IMG/VR virus record: IMGVR_UViG_3300035365_000057
Span: 1 to 64,000 of that record
Reading direction: 5' to 3' (one strand)
From: a virus
Lineage: Duplodnaviria; Caudoviricetes
Length of the DNA: 64,000 nucleotides
Shown here: positions 23,925 to 57,068 of the stretch, in pieces
Position numbering within the stretch: the stretch's first letter is position 1
How the letters are laid out: each line of letters opens with the position of its first letter
Notes under the pieces: model-generated
Databases searched by the model: none
What the model was told of the DNA's origin: nothing
Seen by the model: the letters and a program-made list of their open reading frames with translations, nothing else
Position numbers and translations under genes: made by a program

Positions 23925-23962
23925 ACTCTGCTATCAGACTTCAAGTATGCAGTTTTTATTTG

Positions 23963-24034
23963 TCGCCCCAGTCTCGATTCGAACGGACAACTCGAAGGTT
24001 AGAGCTTCGCATATTACCTTTATACTATGGGGCA
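23963..24034 (-). tRNA. Amber suppressor tRNA (anticodon CUA, presumably Gln)
   Basis: TGCCCCA/TGGGGCG acceptor; CGAAG-CTCTAAC-CTTCG anticodon arm; TTCGAAT T-loop. Confidence 0.92.
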
Positions 24035-33399: not shown

Positions 33400-34680
33400 A
33401 TTATGAGTCAGGTATGACCTCATAAAGAGTTAGGTAACGCTAACATACCATATTACTATAGTTACTCTTCTAATGCAGCCAGATAAAGACAGTCACAAGC
33501 CTGTTTAATGCAGAGTGGAAGATCGTACGATTGAGTTTAGGTTTGACTCATAAAATAAAGTAACTAATCTTAAAGCAAGCAACGGAGAATAACGCTGTAC
33601 CAAAACAGAGGACAATGGTGCTTGACAGTATGACACTAACTGATAAATAATGTGTTGTGAAAATTAATTAAAATTCATGAATTTTACTCAAGCTATATAG
33701 TGTGAGTAAACGTACAGCCGCACGTTAGTGGGTTACAGTTCGTATTCTAGCAAGAAAAGAATATTGTATTGCCGAAAACTGGGGACATGTAAATAATACG
33801 TAGGTTCCGTACACATGTTGAAGAAACCAATCGAATAGTAAGCATAGAGAAATAGGCAAACGACCAGCCAAAATGGTAGTGCTTACAAATAAAAAAGATA
33901 AGAGAAAGTGATATCCGTGCATATATAGATATCTTAGTATAGTTAAGGCCTCAAGCTGCACTGAGCAAATATATTACACTTATCTTTATTAAACTCTTTA
34001 CTGAATTGCAGCCTAAATATGTCAAAGGTAGCGCATGAAAGTAAAGAGTTTCTACACTGTGAGAATCAGTGTCAACTTTGTGGGGCTTATATTTAGATGA
34101 GCGCACAAAAGTAAACCTATATTGTGTGTAGCATTTCGAAAAATTATATTTAAACTAGCTAGATAATTCGTAGAAAGAGTGATATCAGTATAGAGAGACT
34201 TTTGCATCTAATATTAGTGCAGAGAAATCAAAGACAAGATTATATCCTGAGTGTATAATCTAGTAAACTACTAGAGGCTGGTCACCTCGGCAGGAAAGCG
34301 CGACCATGGAGAGGTTTGTGGTAGTACCTCTCCGCTCTTTATGGTGAGAATCCATGACAAGCATGTGGGGCTTATATCTTTATGAGAGACAATACGGTAA
34401 AAATACCCTTCATAAAGTATTAGTGCGGACTTAAAAATCATGCAATGTAACAATTTACTTCTCAATCTCGCGTATAAATACTTCACGTTACAAATCTTGT
34501 TACATTTATTTGGGCTAAGTGTAGCCTAGTCATTAGCCACTTTATAAAACCTTCTTTCTTTTATGTAAAGATCTAGCATATTAGTCTGTGAAGATCGATA
34601 TGCTAGGTGCACTCATGAGATAACCTTCACGTGGTGAGTGTGTAAGTAAGGGTCTAACAAAACTTCCTATTCTACCCTGA
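33400..34680 (+). ncRNA. Structured non-coding region (unassigned RNA motifs)
   Basis: About 1.3 kb with no credible ORF; long-range helix 33405-12/33542-49 and repeated hairpin motifs. Confidence 0.5.
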
Positions 34681-37717: not shown

Positions 37718-38001
37718 CTTTTTTTATTTGTGTCACTTTACCTTTTTATGTTTTAAGTCATACTAGTCTGTGAGGATAGGTATGACGTCCTCAGAAGATG
37801 ACAAACCTGTGGGGCGTAAACTATGTCCTATTTTAAGAGTTAGGCTTGCATAACTCAGTAAATCAGGATGCAAGAACATAGTGATCGTGCGGACGTTAAA
37901 ATCAGGTACTCCAATAAGAAATAGTTTGACAGCTTATTTCTGCTTACGAGTTAAAACTAAAGTAAGATAGTCATATTAAAAATTAACAATAATGTAGATT
38001 T

Positions 38002-39034: not shown

Positions 39035-39549
39035 GCCAGAAAAAAGTAGAATTTAGAAATAAATTCAGAAAAGAAGTTTCAGACATGAACAAAAACATCA
39101 AACAAGCAGAAACTTCAATAAAAATCTTTGACGAAAAGTTCAAAAAGAGACCAAAGCATAAAAAAATGGAACCATACAAACGTGATAAAAAATTATGGAG
39201 ATAAAACAAGATTGCCCTACACAAGATAATAAAATCAACTGTAGTGAATGTAGTCATGAGTGTAAACTCAGAATACAACCAGAAATAGAAGCTAATTCGA
39301 ATTTGCCAGAGTCCGAATTAGCAACTATATATTACTAACTAAAACTTAGTATACATGGTGGATTCAGTCAACCTAAGAACTATTTTATAACCAGAATCCT
39401 AATGGAAGCCCAAAAGGCAAGAGTACAAGGGACCATACAACGGTCAACCAATTTATATTGGTCTGGAGAAGAGCAGGGGTTATCTACTAAATAAGACGTA
39501 CGAATAAGTAGAAATAGTTCTTTTTATTTAAAAATCAAAATTAAAAAAC

Positions 39550-40689: not shown

Positions 40690-41000
40690 CTAAGACCAAA
40701 TAAGGCTAGTAACTTTGGTCGGTCACTAGCCTACTATTGACTGTTAGGTCATTATACAATCGTTAAGACGGGGCTCTCGGATGCCCCTACCTCCACTAAG
40801 TAATGTTTACGTAATTAATTTACACAAGAAACGTTCTATTTTATGTATATTATATTAAGGGGGTAAACGGTTTTTGATTAGCGATGAGATGTAGTGAATA
40901 GGTCAATAAAGCCGATAAATGGCAAAACTTTCGTAACAGACTACACTCGTATCGCCGCAGCGTGATACAGGAAGTCAACGGCTAAGCTAATGTCGTAAAA
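40690..41000 (+). ncRNA. ssrA: Circularly permuted (two-piece) tmRNA
   Basis: 3' acceptor piece (GAC-GGGGC-loop-GCCCC-TACCTCC-A, ends 40795) precedes the 5' piece (GGGGGTA at 40859). 7-bp acceptor stem with G3.U70; multi-segment inter-piece helix; H-type pseudoknot; tag GKTFVTDYTRIAAA-TGA at 40921-40965. Confidence 0.88.
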
Positions 41001-41062: not shown

Positions 41063-41099
41063 CTATTAAAATTAAGTTTAATCAATAAATTAATTTGAA

Positions 41100-42406
41100 A
41101 TGGGATTAATAACATTTATTAGACGTAATCTACCAGAACCGGTAGAAAAAGCTTGTTTAGAAATGCGTATGAAAGAACAAGTTGTTCAACGCATTTATGG
41201 TGCAGTACCTCAACAATTCAAAAATAAATATCATTACAAAGAAGGGTTGAGTCGTATAAAACTCATATTTCATTCTATTACCGAAAAAGGTACAGCCATA
41301 TATCATTTAATTGATATGACTGATGTAGAAGATCTAACTAAGTGGAAAGAATTAGACAACAAAATCAAAAATTACAAAGAATATGCGCGTTAAATATTTC
41401 GCTTGGTTTGATTCTAAGCACGAAAAAACAGAATTCGTAAATTTACTAAGAGAATGTCGCTCAGATATGGAAGCTGTATCTAAAGTAATGGAAAGATATC
41501 CAGAAATTAATATGAGTGAAGCTATGGGAGTTGTAGAAAATTTTAAAAAAGAAATTAATACAAAGAAATCATGAGACTCAATCATCCAGGTATATATCGA
41601 ATCGTTGGCGAAAAATTCGAATTATTAGCCAATATCGAAGGCGAAGCGCCATTATTGAATATCAATGAAGCTTTACTAGTAAATGATCTCGTAATTGACG
41701 GTAAATTTACTATATTAAACAGTGAATCACTTGAAATTCAACAAGTAATAAACAATCCTGATCAATTCATATTCATTGAATACGAATATTCAGATATTGC
41801 AAAATTACCACTTTATCGTAAAACGATTCGTGGTACAAAGGTGCCAAACATCACAAATAACGAAATGAAAGAATTTGAAGAAAAGTATATTCATGATATG
41901 AAAACTAGACGTGACACCACACGAACTAGAGCATATATTATGGAGAGAACTAATCTTTCATTATCGCAAATAAACGTGCTTATCATGCAAATGGCAAGAA
42001 AATTTAGAAACTTATGATCGTAAATTCACTTACTAATCATGTATATACCCCATGGGGAGTAAGATACAATGAATTTAAATGGAGAAACGAATGGTATACT
42101 TTTTTAAAATTATACGATAAAGAACTAAAAGAAATAGATAGTTTTAGAAAAAACACTACAAACTCTGTAAGTCATATAATTTGTTGGTTTGACAGAAATG
42201 TTATCCAACGAATTGGTATCGATAATAAAGTAACCATACAAGTAAGAATCAGAATTATCTGTGGCATGATAAACAAGTTATTTATCCCTACTGTAACTAG
42301 AGAAATGAAAATAGAATTCATGGAATGCATATGGGATACATATAAACAAATGGATAAATCCTGGTCTGACTATTATTGTCTTAATATATTAGGTTTGCCA
42401 TTTTAA
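41100..42406 (+). CDS. Four hypothetical genes (41100..41393, 41383..41574, 41571..42017, 42014..42406)
   Basis: Overlapping starts and stops (ATGA) indicate an operon. Confidence 0.65.
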
Positions 42407-45050: not shown

Positions 45051-45870
45051 ATGAGTATTCGAATTCTATCTGTTGTTAGCATGTTTATAGCCAGTATTTT
45101 CGTTGGTTATAACTTGCTACCAACCGAACAAATACAAGCTCAAACGCTTGTAATTCCTTCACCGATTGAAATACCACACATGATGGATATTCAACCGAAA
45201 AAAGAGGAGTTGTCCACACCAGAGATAGATGTCCAGATAGACCTATCTACTAAAGAAGTATCTGTAAAAGGAACAGTGGACGCAAAGGTCAATGTAACAA
45301 CGATTGGTGAACCAAAACCAATTGTTAAGTGGAAAACCAGAGTAAAGAAAGAAGTTCGTAAGGATACTATTGGTTATCCTTATGTAAAATCAGTAGGACG
45401 TATGCCAACAGATAGTAAACCAATTTCTATACTCAAAACAATTGATAAAAATGCCAAGCAATAAGATTATATTAAAACAGATGCTCCGTTTATCACGAGT
45501 AATCCGAGATCTTAAAGAATCCAGAATGAAAATGAACTTAGTTCAAAATCAAACTGAATACTTTGTATGTGGTGGAGAATCATTAGATATGATTCGTTCC
45601 ATGGCAAACACGAATATATCTAATTGCTTGTATTTAGAAAAGTACTTACGCTCGTCTGTAAGTAATGCATGTAAATGCTTGGATGGTTTCATTCCAGGTA
45701 AAATGGATCCAATAGACTACATCAGTAGTAGTGATGTAAAAAATAAATTTGTCGACTTATGTCTAGGTAGGAATATTGTAGCAACAATCAATCTTACCAC
45801 TGGAATCATTATACCAACTGAACCAGAGCAAAATTTGGCAGAAGATAAATGCCCATCGGAAAAAAGTTAA
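45051..45870 (+). CDS. Two hypothetical genes (45051..45464 signal/TM; 45442..45870)
   Basis: Overlapping complete ORFs. Confidence 0.65.
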
Positions 45871-45879
45871 CATCAATAA

Positions 45880-47970
45880 CCGATTAACAAATACTATAAT
45901 TATGATGTAGTTCGAGAGGAGTAAAACTATAGCGTAAATCACTCCGACAGAAGTCATGCGAGTCATAAAATAATGACAGTCGCGCTGTGTCAGGGAGCTG
46001 TGTTCATTTACACTGGCCCGAAAAAGTACAGGATCCGAGAATATGTTAGCCGCTAAAACGGTGAGATTACTCAAAAGGTAGGATGATAGGCCAAAACGTC
46101 TGAAAAACGGATGGTAAATGGGGATCAGAGTGCTTACCCTCATTAGGTAATGAGAACCGTACTGGTGATTACTAAAGACTCATAAATACTGCAATCAGTA
46201 CCGCTAATGCAGATTTATAAAAATAAGCAAGGGGAACGAAATCCTCTTTAATTACTCGTTTGTATCATCAAAATATGAATCAAGAAGGAGTATAAACACG
46301 ACGCCGAAACAGGGGCAATCCGGCTCCTGGGCTAATCCTTTGGAAAGAGAAGCCGAAGCCAAAAGGCAAACAATAAAATGCAGATAACGCATCAGCGGGG
46401 TCCAATCTCGCTTAATAAAAGCGCAATTATGCGTCCTGACTGGGAAAATAGGCTAACTCTAGTGTTCAGTATACATCAGCTGTGATGCAATATTATTATA
46501 TTGGAACTTATACTTATGAAGGGAGTAAATTAACTGATACTAATGTGAGGGTAACCGTGTTATGGTACATATTATTTAAAATGAGATGGATACGCAATGA
46601 TCCGGGGAGTGAAACTACGGTGGAACCATGATCCGACTGATTAACGTGGAGCAGAAGTAAATTCTGTGCATTATGGTAAATAGTGTTCTCTAAAATTTTA
46701 AATAAGGATGATGTATATGAGATTGATACAGCCTTCCAAGACTAAAGTTGACTCACGAGCTTAGTCGTTCATGTGAGTATAATATATGACGAATGACGAG
46801 ACTAAATAAACAGTCTAAAATGCGGTTTGAGGGCGCTTTAACCCTGATTCTAGTGAACAAAGACCTTTAGCAAGTCTTAGCATATTATGTTCTAAAATAA
46901 ACTTTAGGTGATGCGTAGAAAACACCTACTAAAAAATCGCAGAGTTTAAGTATTTTAAGATATATAAATACCTTTGCTAATAGTTTATATGCACTCCAGT
47001 ATATCGACTAAACGCATCGTAAAAAGGGAATATGAGAGCTTATATTGTTGCTGTAGCCTAACAACCTACAACCAAAATATATCGCATTGCTTACTTAAGA
47101 AGTTAAGAAGCATTAATCAAAAGTATTTACGCTGAATAGAGTCAGCTGCAATAAATGTACTCTAATTGTTTAATTTTTTAATAATTGGGGAAGTCCAATG
47201 ATAGGTCAGAAATATAAGCTACTGTTGTAAAGTAGACATATGGAGAGCGAGTCACCCCCGACTACCAACCGTTATGCTGACTGTTAAGACACTCGTAAAG
47301 TATATAGCCGCAACTATATATGTATGAGAACGCTGAATCGTAGCACTGACCGCGTAGTATATACTGTCTCTATATAATACGTAGTAAACTCATGATGAAG
47401 GTATTTCCATGAGCAAGGTAAAGAATGATGAATGGGTGGAAATCCCATATATTCGTGTAGTATAAATAAGAAATCCGAGAGGTCAAGTGGGCGTCTTGAA
47501 AAATTAGACGGCTTGTTATGGGTTTTAAAATTTTTCTCAACAGGAAAAAACCTCATTCGCTTAGAATGTTGTAATCCTCAATGTTGTCCCGTAGGCATAC
47601 CAGTTGCTGATGATGGGTACTTTTCGAATTGTACTAACACAATACTTATGTTAGAGAATATGATTTGAAATAGGGTGATAGGTGCATACGGCATCGTATA
47701 AGTTGAATCCGTATAGTTTTTATCTTTACTTATAAAAGATTATATCAGAAAATATCAGATGAAATAACAGAAACGTAATTTCAAATAAATTTCAACATTT
47801 ATCATTTATACCTAGTAAGTTATGTGATTGAATTCACTACCAATGTTCTAAACTTTTTAAAGTGAAACCACATGCTGGTTTTTTGGTACCGAGAAATAAC
47901 TGAAAGGTGGAGAGAATTAATTTTAATATTAACTAATTTCGTATTGGTATATCAAGTACGGAATCAAAAA
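45880..47970 (+). ncRNA. About 2-kb non-coding, hairpin-rich region (candidate large ncRNA)
   Basis: No credible ORF; many short stems (46097-46113, 46139-46154, 46751-46778, 46906-46929). Confidence 0.5.
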
Positions 47971-47981
47971 GGAAAATAGTT

Positions 47982-49159
47982 ATGGACGTAAATGTAAACA
48001 TCAATAACAAAGGCGAACAAATCATTGGACGGTATCGCCAGGTTTTAACTTCTTACGGACCTTATTTTGGTCAGAAGTTATTCACAGTAATAAAGACTAA
48101 CCCTGATTTGAAGTGGAAAGAAGACACATTCAACGGCAAAAATACGTTACGGCAAGAAGTAAACGTATACATGCTGAAGGGTATTGACATTAAGTCAGTA
48201 GCATTTAAAGAGAAAGATATCGATGGTAATCCGAAGATTATCTTCAACGCAGAAGACAACGACAATACGCTCGTATTCCCGCTCGAAAAGCCGGACTTCA
48301 AGAATGCAACTCGCGATACTATCGCAGATTGTATTGATCGGTTGAGCAAACCGAACAGCAAGCCTATGTTCTTCGACGCTAAGGAACTTCCGGAGCTCGT
48401 AGAATTGCTGCGTATTGCTAATCAGAGTGTATTGGAATTCTATGAAGAACAGTCTCGTAAGTTCTTGAATCTATCTCAGACTGTACGCGGTATGATGGAT
48501 CAGGCAGATCGCTTCCAAGTCGAATATTTACGGCAGTGCGGAGTATCTACAGCCGAGGCTGAAATCAACGTAAAGATCGAAACTAAAGAGTAACCATTAT
48601 GACTGGCAGAATGTCTCCTTCTAGGATAGCGCTTCTGCAATTACTCATCTGTTCAGAACCAACCATATTGAGCAAAGTTCAGATTTGGAACGGCGAACAA
48701 AAGGAAACTGCCAAAAAAGTAAGCATAAGAGAGGATGGATCGGTCTTCTTTTACTATGGTAGTGGTCCATTATGGTGGCAAAGACTGTTTGGTGCTTATA
48801 AAGCCGTAAGTATTATAGACGCAGCTATAAATATTGCAGATGCAATTACTGGTTCTAATGGAACTCGTAACGAAATAGCTTTTGATGGAATTACTAAAAG
48901 TATTCTTGATGAAGCTGTTAAGAAAAAAGATCTTGATTGCGTAGTAGATATATTGTTTGATAGTATGAGAAACTGTTCTGATGGAGAACTGCATTCTAAG
49001 TATATCACACAAGAAAATCTTCGCAAATACGCAAAAGAAAAAAACTTACAAGGCAATCTCCGTATAGAGATGCCTGATGATCTATTCGGATTCGCATCCG
49101 TAGAGATACGGCCTGGGGTATCAGTACCCATTCGTATAGGCCGTGTCAAATTTAAATAA
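47982..49159 (+). CDS. Two hypothetical genes (47982..48593, 48599..49159)
   Basis: Complete adjacent ORFs. Confidence 0.7.
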
Positions 49160-49195
49160 TATTGGATTGGATATTATTAAAAACAAAATAATTTC

Positions 49196-49327
49196 ACAGT
49201 ACTGAACTGGGTACTGTTTAACATAGAATTACTGAACTGGGTAGTTCTTTGTTTATATCATAAGTAATCCAAGGTATTGAATTGGATACTTGGTGGATGT
49301 TAAAGGTTCGACTCCTTTGCTTATGAC
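49196..49327 (+). ncRNA. Three UGAAYUGG-loop hairpins, the third inside a tRNA-like acceptor/T-arm frame
   Basis: Stems differ while loops are conserved; TCATAAG/CTTATGA acceptor-like stem and AAAGG-TTCGACT-CCTTT T arm. Confidence 0.65.
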
Positions 49328-49375
49328 AACACCAGTAAGCGATTTCGGCGAGTTATTAACAATTTAAAAATCAAT

Positions 49376-51238
49376 TTGCCTATGAAATCAATTACATCTA
49401 AATATATTATCGACCGTCGTAAAGAACTTAGTAACAACATTACAAAGTATTGGAATATTATTAAAAATGAAAATGTAATTCCGAAAGACGGAAAACGAAA
49501 CTACGATCTGAAAGCGTTACTTACGAAGATCGAAGAAATGGCCGACGAACGAATATTATTGAAACTGTATTTACAGTGTATCAATATGGGTTATAAAAAG
49601 TTTTCAGAATTACCTGAAAATAATAACTATCTCGCCATTTTCACACTTAGTGAAAAGTCGGAACAACTATTTCACTTAAGCAAGATACGCACGATTGACC
49701 AAAAATTAAAGCGTTCTAAAGGTAAGAAAAACCTTAATACAACCGAAGAATTAACTTCTTCATTCATCAATATGCGTATAAACAAAATCCAATTAGAAGT
49801 AAATAAATTAGAAAAAGAAATAGAAAACTTTAACAATTCAGCAACTTTAGAAATAGAAACAGCAGCTAAATCATTAGCAGCATGAAAGGAGCAATTTACT
49901 TAAAACAGCATTTGCTTGAAACTAATAGTCACTATGAAGAAAGAGTTAACAACTACATAGTGACTGTTAGCGAAAAGTACAAATTTCTTGGAATAGAAAC
50001 TAAATTTCGCCAAGTAACAATTTATTTTGAGACTAATGAACCGTTACAAGAAAATTCAAAAAGAAAAATTGATTTTCCTGTAACAAGTAATAACATTTAA
50101 AAGATTATCAAGATTATGAAAAAGATATATTCACAAGCCGGTAAAAGAAAAGGAGTTAAAACTAGTTGTTCTAACAAAAACAAATTACGCCGTAAACAAC
50201 ACGGTATATTAATGCGTTCGATAGAACGTCCAGCACCGGAACCATCTCATCTGATAAAAGTTACAGAAACTGAGAATGGGAAAACAATAGAAATTCAGAG
50301 AGTATTAGGAAATAAAAAACAATCTGAATATACTACAAACATTGCGAAAAATGCAATGGCTGATAATAAATCTGCAAAACAATCCAAGAAAGAACTTATC
50401 AAAAAGATACTTATGGAAGCAGGATATGAACCCACAGTACGCTATACTCGTAAGCAAAAGAAACATTTTACGCGTATAGTTAAAAACAAACTATTTGCTA
50501 AACCAAAACCAATCAAACAACTTTCTAAAGAAGAATACAAAAAGAAATTCGCCGAAGAAAGAGCTGCAAAAAAGATAAAATTAGACAACTTACCACACGC
50601 ACAATTACCTGTAATAAAAGGTAAACAAAGACCAATATCAGCTGCAGAAGCAGTAAAGAAAGAAAAACCAAATAACAGAAAATTCCGTTACGTAATAAAC
50701 AGAAAATCTGATGAAAACCCAAACAAGGTTTATGATTTCTTAACAGATTATTTTGATGCTTCAACAAGAACTGAAGCAAAAGACAAAGTAAAGAGTATTG
50801 CTGAAAAATACAAGAAGGATACTTCATTCACAGGTATAACCGTTCAAGATATTAACGGAGATAATAGTATTACATACTATACTAAAGAAAAATTAGCAGC
50901 GTAATAACCATTAAACTATCAAAATTATGGGAGAACAAAATTATATTGAATGGAAATTAGCAGAAGCAAAAAGACCTCGCAAGAAACTTTGGAAAGAAAA
51001 AGAAAAAGAAAGAATTGCAAAAGCAAGAACAAATACACCAAAGCCCGAGGGTAAACCTGAAGACTGGTTGTCTGAAAGGTTAGTCGCTAAACGTATCGTA
51101 AACCGACACAACAAGAAGATTATACGTTTAAACGAGCAAAAGGCTCGTTTAAACAGCAAAATAAAATCTTATCCGAAACAGCATATTGCTGAAAAACGAT
51201 ATAAGATAAAAACATTTGCTATGTTATTAGCAGCGTAA
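49376..51238 (+). CDS. Four hypothetical genes (49376..49885, 49882..50100, 50116..50904, 50927..51238); three end in -LAA
   Basis: Complete ORFs; C-termini KSLAA, EKLAA, MLLAA. Confidence 0.7.
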
Positions 51239-51275
51239 ACTAACTAAAATCGGTTGTTTTTATTTTTTAAATGTT

Positions 51276-51351
51276 TCGCATATAGCTCAGTTGGTAGAGC
51301 CGCAATACTAATACTGTGTGATTTGCGTGGGTTCGAGTCCCACTATGCGAT
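51276..51351 (+). tRNA. Atypical tRNA (anticodon uncertain, AAU by best fold)
   Basis: TCGCATA/TATGCGA acceptor, canonical D and T arms; anticodon arm 3 nt too long and irregular. Confidence 0.6.
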
Positions 51352-51375
51352 CGATAATCCCCAAAATATATTCAT

Positions 51376-53232
51376 ATGATAATTCGTAATAAACCATGTA
51401 TTGTCTATGATATTGAGGTGTTTATTAATGTATTTCATTGTACTCTATATAATACTGAAACACAAGAACTAATTAAGTTTGAATGTTCTCAGCGTAAAAA
51501 TGAAATTCATGAAATGTGTCAGTTCTTTTTATATACTGATGCATATTTTGTTGGTTATAACAATATTCATTATGATAATCCAATAATCAACTATTGTATT
51601 GAGTATTTTAATAATGATAACTATACTCACAATCGAATTTGTGAATCTATTTTTAACATGTCAAATATTATTACATCAAACGATGATAATAATTTTGATA
51701 AATGGAAAAGATGGAAATACGCAAAAAATTTCTTGACATTAGACTTACTTACAATGCTGTATAGTAAGCAGTTACGAGTTTCTTTAAAAGAAATGCAAGT
51801 AACCATGATGTATAAAAATGTACAAGAATTTAATATCGATTGGAGAGAACCGTTATTATTAACTCAAATAGATGAAATGATTCAGTATAATATAAATGAT
51901 GTAATGTCTACTACTGAATTATTGAATCGCTGCAAGAAAGATATTGAATTACGTATAAGTATTGAAAACCAATATAATATTGATTGTTTATCAAAAGATG
52001 GTGTTAATATCGGTATGCAAATATTAGCAGAAGAATATATGCGTAAAACAGGAATTCCTTGGAATATACTAAAGAATTTACGTAGTCCTGCAGATAAAAT
52101 TGCATTAAAAGATATTATACTACCATTTATTCACTATCAAACACCAATACTACAAGAATTACTTACTGAAATGAAATCATTAACAGTAAGTCCAGGTAGA
52201 AAAGGGTATGAAAAACAATTCGTAATGGATGGTACAACATATTCAGTTGGTGTTGGCGGTATTCATAGTATAAACAAGCCAGAAATAATAATACCAAAAA
52301 ATGATGAATTACTAATTGATTGTGATGTTGCATCACTATATCCAAGTATGCTATTAAACTTTAATTTCTATCCAAAACATTTAGGAAAAGAATTCAAAGA
52401 AGTATATTCAGATATACGAGATAGAAGAATTAAAGCAAAACACGAAGGAAATAAAATTGTAAATGAAACGTTAAAATTAAGTCTAAATGGACTTAGTGGA
52501 AATTTACAAAATGAATTTTCTTGGTGTTACGATCCTAATGCAGTAATGTCTATTAGAATAAATGGACAATTATTATTATTGATGTTAGCAGAAGAATTAA
52601 CAATTCACGGATGTCGTATAGTTCAAATCAATACAGATGGTATTTTATACTTATGTAAGAAAAACAAATACGATATTATAAAAGCAATATACAATAAATG
52701 GCAAGAATTAACTGGATTAGTATTAGAAGAAGAAAACTTCAAAGCTTTTTATCAATTAGCAATTAATGATTATTTTGGTATACTTGACAACGGTCAAGTA
52801 AAAGAAAAAGGATGTTTTATTACTTCTGTTAAACTTGGTAAAGGTCTTACTCCAAAGATTATACCGAAAGCAGTAATAGCATACTTTAAAGATAGAATCC
52901 CAATTGAAAATACAATTAAAAACTGTACCGATATTAAGGATTTCTTAATGTCTGAAAAGACAGGCAAACAATGGCATGTTGAATATTTAGAAAAGGAACA
53001 ACAGCGTATTAATCGTTTCTATGCGTCTACTAATGGTGGATATCTATGGAAATGGAAAGATAATAACGGAGAGAAAGCATACCAAAATATGCTTACTGCA
53101 TCTGGTGTTACTTTACTAAATAAATTTGATGATAAACCAATCAATGAACGTAAGATTAATTACCGGTATTATATAACAGAAGCCGCTAAGATAATCGACG
53201 AATTAACTACTAAACAATTGAGTCTGTGGTAA
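51376..53232 (+). CDS. polB: DNA polymerase family B
   Basis: Exonuclease YDIE and GYNNIHYD; polymerase DVASLYPS, KLSLNGLSG, NTDG. Confidence 0.92.
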   Translation: MIIRNKPCIVYDIEVFINVFHCTLYNTETQELIKFECSQRKNEIHEMCQFFLYTDAYFVGYNNIHYDNPIINYCIEYFNNDNYTHNRICESIFNMSNIITSNDDNNFDKWKRWKYAKNFLTLDLLTMLYSKQLRVSLKEMQVTMMYKNVQEFNIDWREPLLLTQIDEMIQYNINDVMSTTELLNRCKKDIELRISIENQYNIDCLSKDGVNIGMQILAEEYMRKTGIPWNILKNLRSPADKIALKDIILPFIHYQTPILQELLTEMKSLTVSPGRKGYEKQFVMDGTTYSVGVGGIHSINKPEIIIPKNDELLIDCDVASLYPSMLLNFNFYPKHLGKEFKEVYSDIRDRRIKAKHEGNKIVNETLKLSLNGLSGNLQNEFSWCYDPNAVMSIRINGQLLLLMLAEELTIHGCRIVQINTDGILYLCKKNKYDIIKAIYNKWQELTGLVLEEENFKAFYQLAINDYFGILDNGQVKEKGCFITSVKLGKGLTPKIIPKAVIAYFKDRIPIENTIKNCTDIKDFLMSEKTGKQWHVEYLEKEQQRINRFYASTNGGYLWKWKDNNGEKAYQNMLTASGVTLLNKFDDKPINERKINYRYYITEAAKIIDELTTKQLSLW

Positions 53233-56992: not shown

Positions 56993-57068
56993 TGTGGTTT
57001 AGCTCAGTGGTAGAGCGACAGTTCTTAGTAAGCTGTAGGTCGTAGGTTCGAATCCGGTACAACCACGG
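56993..57068 (+). tRNA. Atypical tRNA (Thr-like scaffold; loop TCTTAGTAA, anticodon ambiguous)
   Basis: TGTGGTT/AACCACG acceptor, canonical D arm, ACAGT/GCTGT stem with 9-nt loop, 2-nt bulge in the T stem. Confidence 0.65.

What the first reader, a model, noticed from the sequence alone, without database searches (positions are those of the whole stretch)
49196..49327. Three tandem hairpins with the same UGAAYUGG loop, the third grafted into a tRNA-like frame
Seen: ACAGTAC-[TGAACTGG]-GTACTGT (49196), GAATTAC-[TGAACTGG]-GTAGTTC (49226) and CCAAGGTAT-[TGAATTGG]-ATACTTGG (49269). The third replaces the D and anticodon arms between a 7-bp acceptor-like stem (49258/49320) and a canonical T arm. 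Different stems with an invariant loop indicate a selected RNA ligand. Inference: a chimeric tRNA mimic displaying a protein-binding loop (sponge, or autoregulatory operator for the downstream gene).
Basis: partly seen in the sequence, partly recalled or inferred. Interest (0 to 1): 0.75.

Follow-up and report, generated by a model that had tools for sequence, protein, structure and literature searches.

The report
Conserved hairpin array beside degenerate tRNA
A chicken-gut crAss-like phage carries a row of small RNA hairpins that show the same eight-letter loop on different stems. Every relative examined keeps them, next to a tRNA or a worn-down tRNA, so they look like docking sites for a still unknown partner, and I found no description of such an element.

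Summary
The window has five + strand hairpins with loop UGRAYNGG, not three. One lies inside the upstream gene ORF186 (loop 48736-48743). Three are free in the spacer (loops 49163, 49203, 49233). One sits inside a tRNA-like element (loop 49278). No other 8-nt hairpin loop recurs on this strand of the 76.5-kb genome.

In about 100 related loci (Suoliviridae, Crassvirales) the motif is always flanked by a stem. There are 72 distinct hairpins, every stem pair covaries, and no copy lies on the opposite strand. Two copies sit at fixed places inside ORF186 and are kept partly by a compensating synonymous change. Distant subfamilies keep the same gene cassette and hairpin array, but with other loops (GAUGG-type, CUGCGG-type).

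The tRNA-like frame occupies a slot that holds a genuine tRNA-Arg(UCU) in some relatives and anticodon-less tRNA shapes in others. Its acceptor stem and T arm covary.

Best reading (0.45): a multi-site RNA recognition array on the ORF186 message, bound by a co-evolving factor that is probably phage-encoded. The decayed tRNA is probably kept as an RNase P/Z cutting signal. The binder and expression are unshown. I found no Rfam family or paper that describes the array. This scan had already noted anticodon-less tRNA shapes in other crAss-like phages.

The parts
48726..48753 (+). Hairpin A, inside the ORF186 coding sequence. 10-bp stem, loop TGGATCGG (48736-48743). Encodes the conserved ..REDGSVFF.. 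segment.
   Evidence: Orthologous copies sit at the same offset (+137 from the ORF start) in most Loutivirinae-type loci, with changed stems.
49155..49178 (+). Hairpin 1. 8-bp stem, loop TGGATTGG (49163-49170). The 5' stem contains the TAA stop of ORF186 (49157-49159).
49196..49217 (+). Hairpin 2. 7-bp perfect stem, loop TGAACTGG (49203-49210).
49225..49248 (+). Hairpin 3. 8-bp stem with one U.G pair, loop TGAACTGG (49233-49240).
49258..49327 (+). tRNA-like element in the tRNA-Arg slot.
- Acceptor stem 49258-49264 / 49320-49326.
- Outer 5-bp helix 49267-49271 / 49294-49298.
- GG bulge 49292-49293.
- T arm 49302-49318.
- No anticodon loop.
   Evidence: Rfam tRNA model gives 18.1 bits, below the gathering score of 29. 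ARAGORN finds nothing. Acceptor and T stem covary. It is syntenic with tRNA-Arg(TCT) of relatives.
49272..49291 (+). Hairpin 4, embedded in the tRNA-like element. 6-bp stem with one G.U pair, loop TGAATTGG (49278-49285).
   Evidence: Loops in the sister lineages are TGAATAGG, TGAATTGG and TGAATCGG.
48599..49159 (+). ORF186. Conserved protein of no known family, whose message carries the hairpins.
47982..48593 (+). ORF203, the first gene of the cassette. It is fused with the ORF186 homologue into one 399-aa CDS in phage cr53_1.
49328..49375 (+). Conserved leader between the tRNA slot and the next gene.
   Evidence: Alignment. The same block is seen.
49376..49885 (+). ORF169, the third gene of the cassette. 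Basic (pI 9.4), no known family.

Best explanation
The element is a cis-acting array of RNA hairpins on the sense transcript of the ORF186 gene and its 3' spacer. Each hairpin displays the loop U-G-R-A-Y-(N)-G-G (core GAY(N)GG) on an otherwise free stem.

The standard layout in this phage group is two copies inside ORF186, one at its stop codon, one or two more in the spacer, then a tRNA or tRNA-shaped element, then the next gene. I read the loops as repeated docking sites for one sequence-specific RNA-binding factor. This factor is most probably a phage protein of the same three-gene cassette (ORF203 / ORF186 / ORF169). It would assemble on, and thereby control, the ORF186 message through its translation, stability or processing.

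The tRNA-like element at 49258-49327 is a remodelled descendant of a tRNA gene. It keeps only the acceptor stem and T arm, the part that RNase P and RNase Z recognise. It most likely serves to cut the transcript between the hairpin array and the downstream gene. In this lineage an extra copy of the hairpin is lodged where the D and anticodon arms were.

Shown: the structures, their conservation, covariation, strand and position.
Inferred: that the molecule is RNA, that a protein binds it, which protein, and the cleavage.
For: 1. Structure under selection.
- 140 of 140 motif copies in the homologous spacer of 80 IMG/VR loci are flanked by a stem of at least 4 bp.
- There are 72 distinct hairpins. 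All 7 stem pairs change on both sides, and 89.7% of cells are paired against 52.6% in shuffles and 31-55% when the partner is slid.
- All four closing pair types occur, while U1, G2, A4, G7 and G8 never vary.

2. One strand only. There are 313 hairpins on the gene strand and none truly on the other (the six '-' rows are L082, the same contig reversed).

3. Local, not genome-wide. In the 76.5-kb genome the hairpins occur only at 48.7-49.3 kb.

4. Tied to ORF186.
- Copies sit at fixed offsets inside its coding sequence (+137, +200) and at its stop codon.
- In hairpin B a Thr-to-Ala change (ACT to GCT) is matched by a synonymous AGT-to-AGC change on the other arm.
- In distant homologues the in-ORF copies lie at other positions but again inside the ORF186 homologue and its 3' spacer.

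5. The loop changes with lineage while the architecture stays.
- UGGAYGG in L055, L101 and L103.
- CGAUGGG in L100.
- GAUGG-core loops in L107 and in Uncouvirinae.
- CUGCGG-type loops in Oafivirinae and CAGCGUG in L108.
This is what a co-evolving specific partner predicts.

6. tRNA-like part.
- It is syntenic with tRNA-Arg(TCT).
- Four acceptor pairs and two T-stem pairs change on both sides between sub-lineages.
- Independent lineages keep tRNA shapes whose anticodon arm is a 3-4-bp stub or is absent.
Against: - No binder is identified. ORF203, ORF186 and ORF169 match no Pfam, PHROG or NCBIfam family.
- A confident AlphaFold model of ORF186 (pLDDT 86.7) resembles no solved RNA-binding fold.
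- Only two residues are nearly invariant across the deep ORF186 family, while the GAY(N)GG core persists down to about 25% identity. This fits a conserved host factor, or another phage protein, at least as well as ORF186 itself.
- Nothing here shows that the region is transcribed as one RNA, or cut at the tRNA-like element.
- Hairpins inside a coding sequence are unusual for classic operators.
- My hairpin set was selected for at least 4 inner pairs, G.U allowed. The inner four pairs are therefore paired by construction, and the G.U against A.C count (24 against 10) is not an unbiased test of strand or of RNA against DNA.
Confidence: 0.45

Rival explanations
1. Decoy or sponge. The hairpin array, possibly released as a stable small RNA by cuts at the tRNA-like element, soaks up a host RNA-binding protein or nuclease. 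This is.
For: Several copies of one loop on different stems are the hallmark of sponge RNAs (own knowledge: CsrB/RsmZ). The core GAY(N)GG persists while ORF186 diverges to about 25% identity, as expected for a conserved host target. The array is followed by a tRNA-shaped element that could define a 3' end.
Against: Copy number is low and nearly fixed, at 3 to 6 per locus, with no sign of expansion. Two copies are inside a coding sequence. Oafivirinae use a different loop although the family as a whole infects related gut hosts (hosts not shown here). No discrete RNA is shown.
Confidence: 0.17
2. RNA-only role. The loops, which resemble the 5' half of a tRNA D loop (A-R-Y-(N)-G-G), dock on T loops or other RNA. 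Alternatively the hairpins simply protect the 3' end of the ORF186 message after RNase P cuts at the tRNA-like element.
For: - The loop part R-A-Y-(N)-G-G, with an optional N, parallels D-loop positions 14-19 with the optional position 17 (own knowledge of tRNA numbering; loops).
- The array always precedes a T-arm-bearing element.
- In true tRNA-Arg and the stub forms, the G19-C56 tertiary pair covaries to A19-U56, so elbow contacts are under selection here.
Against: - One T loop cannot serve three to six hairpins.
- A purely protective hairpin needs no invariant loop.
- Oafivirinae loops (CUGCGG type) have no D-loop likeness.
- The idea of pairing to one fixed RNA target fails, because loop position 6 is any base or absent.
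Confidence: 0.12
3. Single-stranded DNA element. The hairpins form on one DNA strand during replication and act as priming or initiator sites of an origin that lies within and behind the initiator's own gene, as the lambda origin lies in gene O.
For: The cassette lies in the replication module, upstream of the DNA polymerase at 51376-53232 and, in cr53_1, of helicase and primase. Hairpins confined to one strand with conserved loops are known for single-strand initiation signals and rolling-circle origins (own knowledge). Nothing here proves the hairpins act as RNA.
Against: - Stems of 5-8 bp with 8-nt loops would not extrude from duplex DNA.
- The hairpins respect a gene unit (ORF186 and its 3' spacer) in all lineages, even where their positions differ.
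- They are always on the sense strand.
- The strand-composition switch of the window is at about 31-32 kb, not here.
Confidence: 0.1
4. The third hairpin is only the decayed D arm of the old tRNA, and its likeness to the free hairpins is inherited chance, not a graft.
For: - MAFFT aligns the loop with the D loop of tRNA-Arg.
- L001 shares a 9-nt run (ATTGAATAG) with the D loop and first stem base of the genuine tRNA-Arg of L036 and L080.
- Loop position 6 is T, A or C in the embedded copies.
- The sister lineage L083-L090 lacks the inner hairpin.
Against: - All embedded copies still fit UGRAYNGG. Free copies also vary at position 6.
- The inner stem is kept with a compensatory G-C to A-U change.
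- An 11-bp two-part hairpin is not a D arm.
Confidence: 0.15

Closest known systems
Protein-bound operator hairpins with a fixed loop: T4 gp43 operator (8-nt loop), MS2/PP7 coat-protein operators, lambda N boxB, PyrR binding loops, ANTAR dual hairpins (own knowledge, not tested here)
   Same: A short stem of free sequence presents a loop of fixed sequence. They occur at one or a few defined places in a transcript. Specificity differs between related phages.
   Different: Here there are three to six copies per locus, with some inside a coding sequence. The loop sequence matches none of these. No boxA partner, terminator overlap or ribosome-binding-site overlap was found. The binder is unknown.
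CsrB/RsmZ-type sponge RNAs and CsrA-regulated leaders (own knowledge)
   Same: Many hairpins carry the same loop motif on different stems in one RNA.
   Different: The CsrA motif needs GGA. Here position 3 is A in most copies (GAA), so the defining motif is not met. Copy number is small and fixed, and the array overlaps an ORF.
t-elements of plant mitochondria: tRNA-like structures that direct RNase P / RNase Z cuts at mRNA ends (Forner et al. 2007, PMC1920247; found, abstract only read)
   Same: A tRNA-shaped structure without decoding capacity sits between coding regions. It keeps the acceptor and T-arm part that the processing enzymes recognise.
   Different: This one is in a phage, sits in a slot that still holds a working tRNA in sister lineages, and carries an inserted motif hairpin. 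Cleavage is not shown.
Canonical tRNA (Rfam RF00005), specifically the phage tRNA-Arg(UCU) of relatives L002, L004, L007, L080, L105
   Same: Same genomic slot, 7-bp acceptor stem, canonical T arm, similar length (69 against 75 nt).
   Different: No anticodon loop and no normal D arm. It scores 18.1 bits against a gathering score of 29, and ARAGORN does not call it.

Membership tests
tRNA (RF00005) | Score at or above the Rfam gathering threshold, or a call by a tRNA finder | tested here: not met
   18.1 bits against 29. ARAGORN calls three other tRNAs but not this element.
tRNA (RF00005) | 7-bp acceptor stem and 5-bp T stem with a T loop of the GTTCRA type | tested here: met
   49258-49264 / 49320-49326 and 49302-49318. 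Both covary in relatives.
tRNA (RF00005) | Anticodon arm with a 7-nt loop, and a 4-bp D arm | tested here: not met
   A single two-part hairpin with an 8-nt loop fills the space.
tRNA-like processing signal (t-element type) | tRNA-shaped acceptor and T-arm structure between coding regions, kept without decoding function | tested here: met
   Stub, armless and WIN-type forms are all kept in the same slot.
tRNA-like processing signal (t-element type) | Cleavage by RNase P at the 5' end and RNase Z at the 3' end | not testable with these tools
   Only assembled contigs of RNA libraries were available, and these cannot show RNA ends.
CsrA/RsmE-binding hairpin arrays | GGA core in the loop of every site | tested here: not met
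   Loop position 3 is A in most distinct hairpins. TGAATTGG (19) and TGAACTGG (10) are the commonest loops.
lambda-type nut site (boxA plus boxB) | Pentaloop boxB hairpin preceded by a conserved linear boxA | tested here: not met
   Loops are 7-8 nt. The linkers between hairpins are not conserved across sub-lineages.
Intrinsic terminator | G+C-rich stem followed by a U tract on the transcribed strand | tested here: not met
   The scan finds no + strand terminator-like site in 48500-50000. Two copies lie inside an ORF.
Any Rfam 15 family | A match at or near a family's gathering score over 49100-49420 or 45400-49400 | tested here: not met
   Only sub-threshold chance-level rows. None at E up to 0.5.

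The most novel reading that the evidence does not exclude
The three-gene cassette conserved across Suoliviridae encodes its own ribonucleoprotein. One of its proteins assembles on five or six loop-specific hairpins, which are written partly into the coding sequence of ORF186 and partly behind it. Loop and protein co-evolve between subfamilies. A tRNA gene next to the array has repeatedly been stripped of its anticodon and reused as a structural or processing module that can even carry an extra binding hairpin. This would be a new kind of phage RNA-protein regulatory unit in one of the most abundant groups of gut viruses.
Probability: 0.3. Interest if true: 0.75.

Novelty: new variant of a known kind. 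Interest (0 to 1): 0.62.

Why it matters
Crassvirales are among the commonest viruses of vertebrate guts, yet almost nothing is known about how they control their early and replication genes.

This element is small and sharply defined, and it is strongly conserved. Its loop letters, stems and positions are known across a whole family, with natural specificity variants between subfamilies. It therefore gives a direct handle for finding an RNA-binding regulator by pull-down or gel shift.

It also shows RNA structure selected inside a protein-coding sequence. And it adds a clear case to the growing set of phage tRNA genes that have lost decoding but kept their shape.

Tried and rejected
- **Rfam and ARAGORN.** Searches of the window and the region give no family for the hairpins.
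- **Genome-wide promoter or terminator motif.** Rejected. The hairpins occur at one locus only and have no U tract.
- **Pairing of all loops to one fixed RNA target (CCAGUUCA).** Rejected once loop position 6 proved to be any base or absent.
- **RNA libraries.** Four runs were laid on 47900-51400. All are assembled contigs of relatives. They cannot show ends, strand or level, and the spacer is too diverged, so there is no conclusion about expression.
- **Protein families for ORF203, ORF186, ORF169 and three neighbours**: none.
- **PDB sequence profile**: only chance-level rows.
- **AlphaFold of ORF186.** With 26 sequences the model was poor (pLDDT 61). With 79 sequences it was good (86.7). Foldseek and VIA-align against PDB gave only generic three-helix-bundle matches with Z up to 6. 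BFVD gave only uncharacterised crAss-like proteins.
- **ESM Atlas.** Nothing for ORF186. For ORF169 there is a weak lead to DUF6847, not confirmed by Pfam.
- **Pattern scan of IMG/VR for the window-type T arm plus acceptor**: only the contig already held.
- **Hairpin at 41089-41110 (loop UGAAAUGG).** It is conserved without covariation and holds the start codon of the next gene, so it is not counted as a family member.
- **Literature**: no description of these hairpins was found.

Full report
**What is in the window**

The window is part of a 76.5-kb contig of a crAss-like phage. Its nearest named relatives are Suoliviridae, subfamily Loutivirinae, such as cr53_1 and cr4_1. The DNA occurs in chicken-gut metagenomes.

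The flagged stretch lies in the + strand early/replication arm. It sits between ORF186 (48599-49159) and ORF169 (49376-49885), about 2 kb upstream of the DNA polymerase.

I found two more.
- 49155-49178: loop TGGATTGG. Its stem includes the ORF186 stop codon.
- 48726-48753: loop TGGATCGG, inside ORF186.

The acceptor-like stem and the T arm are also as described. The Rfam tRNA model aligns them well but scores only 18.1 bits against a threshold of 29, and ARAGORN does not call the element.

**Chance**

The octamer alone is not enriched. However, on the + strand of the genome there are 260 hairpins with a stem of at least 6 bp and an 8-nt loop, and only this loop recurs. The five related loops lie within 560 nt.

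**Relatives**

I fetched 80 IMG/VR loci through the ORF169 homologue. I added 14 closer loci through ORF186 homologues and several GenBank records.
- Every motif copy in the homologous spacer (140 of 140) has a stem of at least 4 bp.
- With one mismatch allowed, there are 313 hairpins on the gene strand and none truly on the other.
- The loop consensus is U-G-R-A-Y-N-G-G. Position 6 is mostly U but can be any base, and it is absent in one group, giving UGGAYGG.
- There are 72 distinct hairpins. All seven stem pairs change on both sides, and the covariation score is 0.95 against 0.21 in shuffles and 0.08-0.26 for slid partners.
- A caveat: I selected hairpins with at least four inner pairs. The unbiased evidence is therefore the 140/140 count and the outer pairs.

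**Hairpins inside a gene**

Two further copies sit at fixed offsets inside ORF186, at +137 and +200. They overlap conserved protein segments.

Their stems nevertheless covary. In hairpin B, a Thr-to-Ala codon change on one arm is matched by a synonymous Ser codon change on the other. The window's phage has lost hairpin B, and its protein reads YKAV there.

The usual layout is A, B, one hairpin at the stop codon, and one or two more in the spacer.

**The tRNA slot**

Directly after the array every lineage has a tRNA-shaped element. The forms are:
- a genuine tRNA-Arg(UCU) (L002, L004, L007, L080, L105);
- a form with acceptor, D and T arms whose anticodon arm is a covarying 3-4-bp stub (L043, L055, L056, L068, L075, cr52_1, cr113_1);
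- a 50-nt form with no inner hairpin (L083-L090);
- the window's form, shared with L001, L091 and L093-L096.

In the window's form, four acceptor pairs and two T-stem pairs change on both sides between sub-lineages. The inner hairpin keeps a family loop: TGAATTGG, TGAATAGG or TGAATCGG.

An outer 5-bp helix and a conserved GG bulge (49292-49293) could stand for a D stem and G18-G19. That is inference.

In cr53_1 the tRNA-Arg is split in its anticodon loop by an insert carrying an HNH gene. This suggests one route by which anticodons are lost here.

**Wider family**

A profile search found ORF186 relatives down to about 20% identity. Their loci and named genomes show the same cassette: an ORF of about 200 aa, an ORF of about 180 aa, a hairpin array, a tRNA or tRNA-like element, and an ORF of about 175 aa. 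It is present in Loutivirinae, Uncouvirinae and Oafivirinae.

Hairpins with one shared loop on different stems recur inside the ORF186 homologue and behind it, but the loop differs by lineage.
- UGGAYGG in L101 and L103.
- CGAUGGG in L100.
- GAUGG-core loops in L105, L107 and Uncouvirinae.
- CUGCGG-type loops in Oafivirinae.
- CAGCGUG in L108.

**Proteins**

None of the three cassette proteins matches a known family. A confident model of ORF186 (pLDDT 86.7) has no informative structural neighbour.

**Reading**

An invariant asymmetric loop on free stems, on one strand, at one locus, with lineage-specific variants, is best explained by specific recognition by a co-evolving partner. The tie to ORF186 points to a factor acting on that message, possibly a cassette protein. 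The tRNA-shaped element kept without an anticodon fits a processing signal for RNase P and RNase Z, like plant mitochondrial t-elements (PMC1920247).

Rivals are a decoy for a host factor, an RNA-only role, and a single-stranded DNA origin element. None is excluded, because no expression or binding data could be obtained.

**Known or new**

Rfam 15 has no matching family, and the paper searches found no description. Earlier notes of this scan had already reported anticodon-less tRNA shapes in other crAss-like phages and proposed the processing reading. The hairpin family and its link to ORF186 are new to this scan as far as I could see.

Noticed in passing
L081 2710-3268 (phage cr53_1, NC_055889.1): The tRNA-Arg(UCU) of the slot is split in its anticodon loop by an insert of about 490 nt that is almost entirely an HNH endonuclease ORF. 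The halves match the intact tRNA of L080. The insert leaves too little room for a group I ribozyme core.
   Followed up: partly
L075 4374-4431, L068 4851-4908, L083 3394-3450: Upstream of the DNA polymerase gene of relatives there are 57-58-nt tRNAs with acceptor, D and T arms, but only 3-4 nt in place of the anticodon arm. They score 41-49 bits on the Rfam tRNA model. The window has a 77-nt tRNA at the matching place (51276-51352).
   Followed up: partly
window 45871-47981: A 2.1-kb stretch just upstream of ORF203 has no ORF under table 11 or under TAG=Gln. It lies in the most G+C-rich part of the window (0.37 for 44-48 kb, against 0.28-0.36 elsewhere). The same gap is present in cr53_1 (85519-87645). 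No Rfam match. It may be a large structured RNA or an origin region.
   Followed up: partly
window 47982-49159; L081 1417-2616: ORF203 and ORF186 are separate here, 5 nt apart and in different frames. In cr53_1 they are annotated as one 399-aa CDS.
   Followed up: no
window 40736-40965 and 41089-41110: There is a permuted tmRNA-like match (RF04321, 38.7 bits, below the gathering score of 47), and cr52_1 has an annotated tmRNA at the same place. A nearby hairpin with loop UGAAAUGG holds the start codon of the next gene. It is conserved without covariation.
   Followed up: partly
window 34050-34443, 37787-37907, 39364-39522: Three hatchet ribozymes and a RAGATH-9 RNA match above Rfam gathering scores in the early arm.
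   Followed up: no
window 23962-24034 (- strand): tRNA with anticodon CTA, an amber suppressor. It fits TAG reassignment in the - strand arm, where table-11 ORFs are short.
   Followed up: no
L007 and L036, tRNA-Arg at 2873-2947: The D-loop/T-loop tertiary pair appears to covary. L007 has GG in the D loop with TTCGA in the T loop. L036 and the stub forms have GA with TTTGA.
   Followed up: no
window 56994-57066: The Rfam tRNA model matches at 37.2 bits, but ARAGORN makes no call.
   Followed up: no
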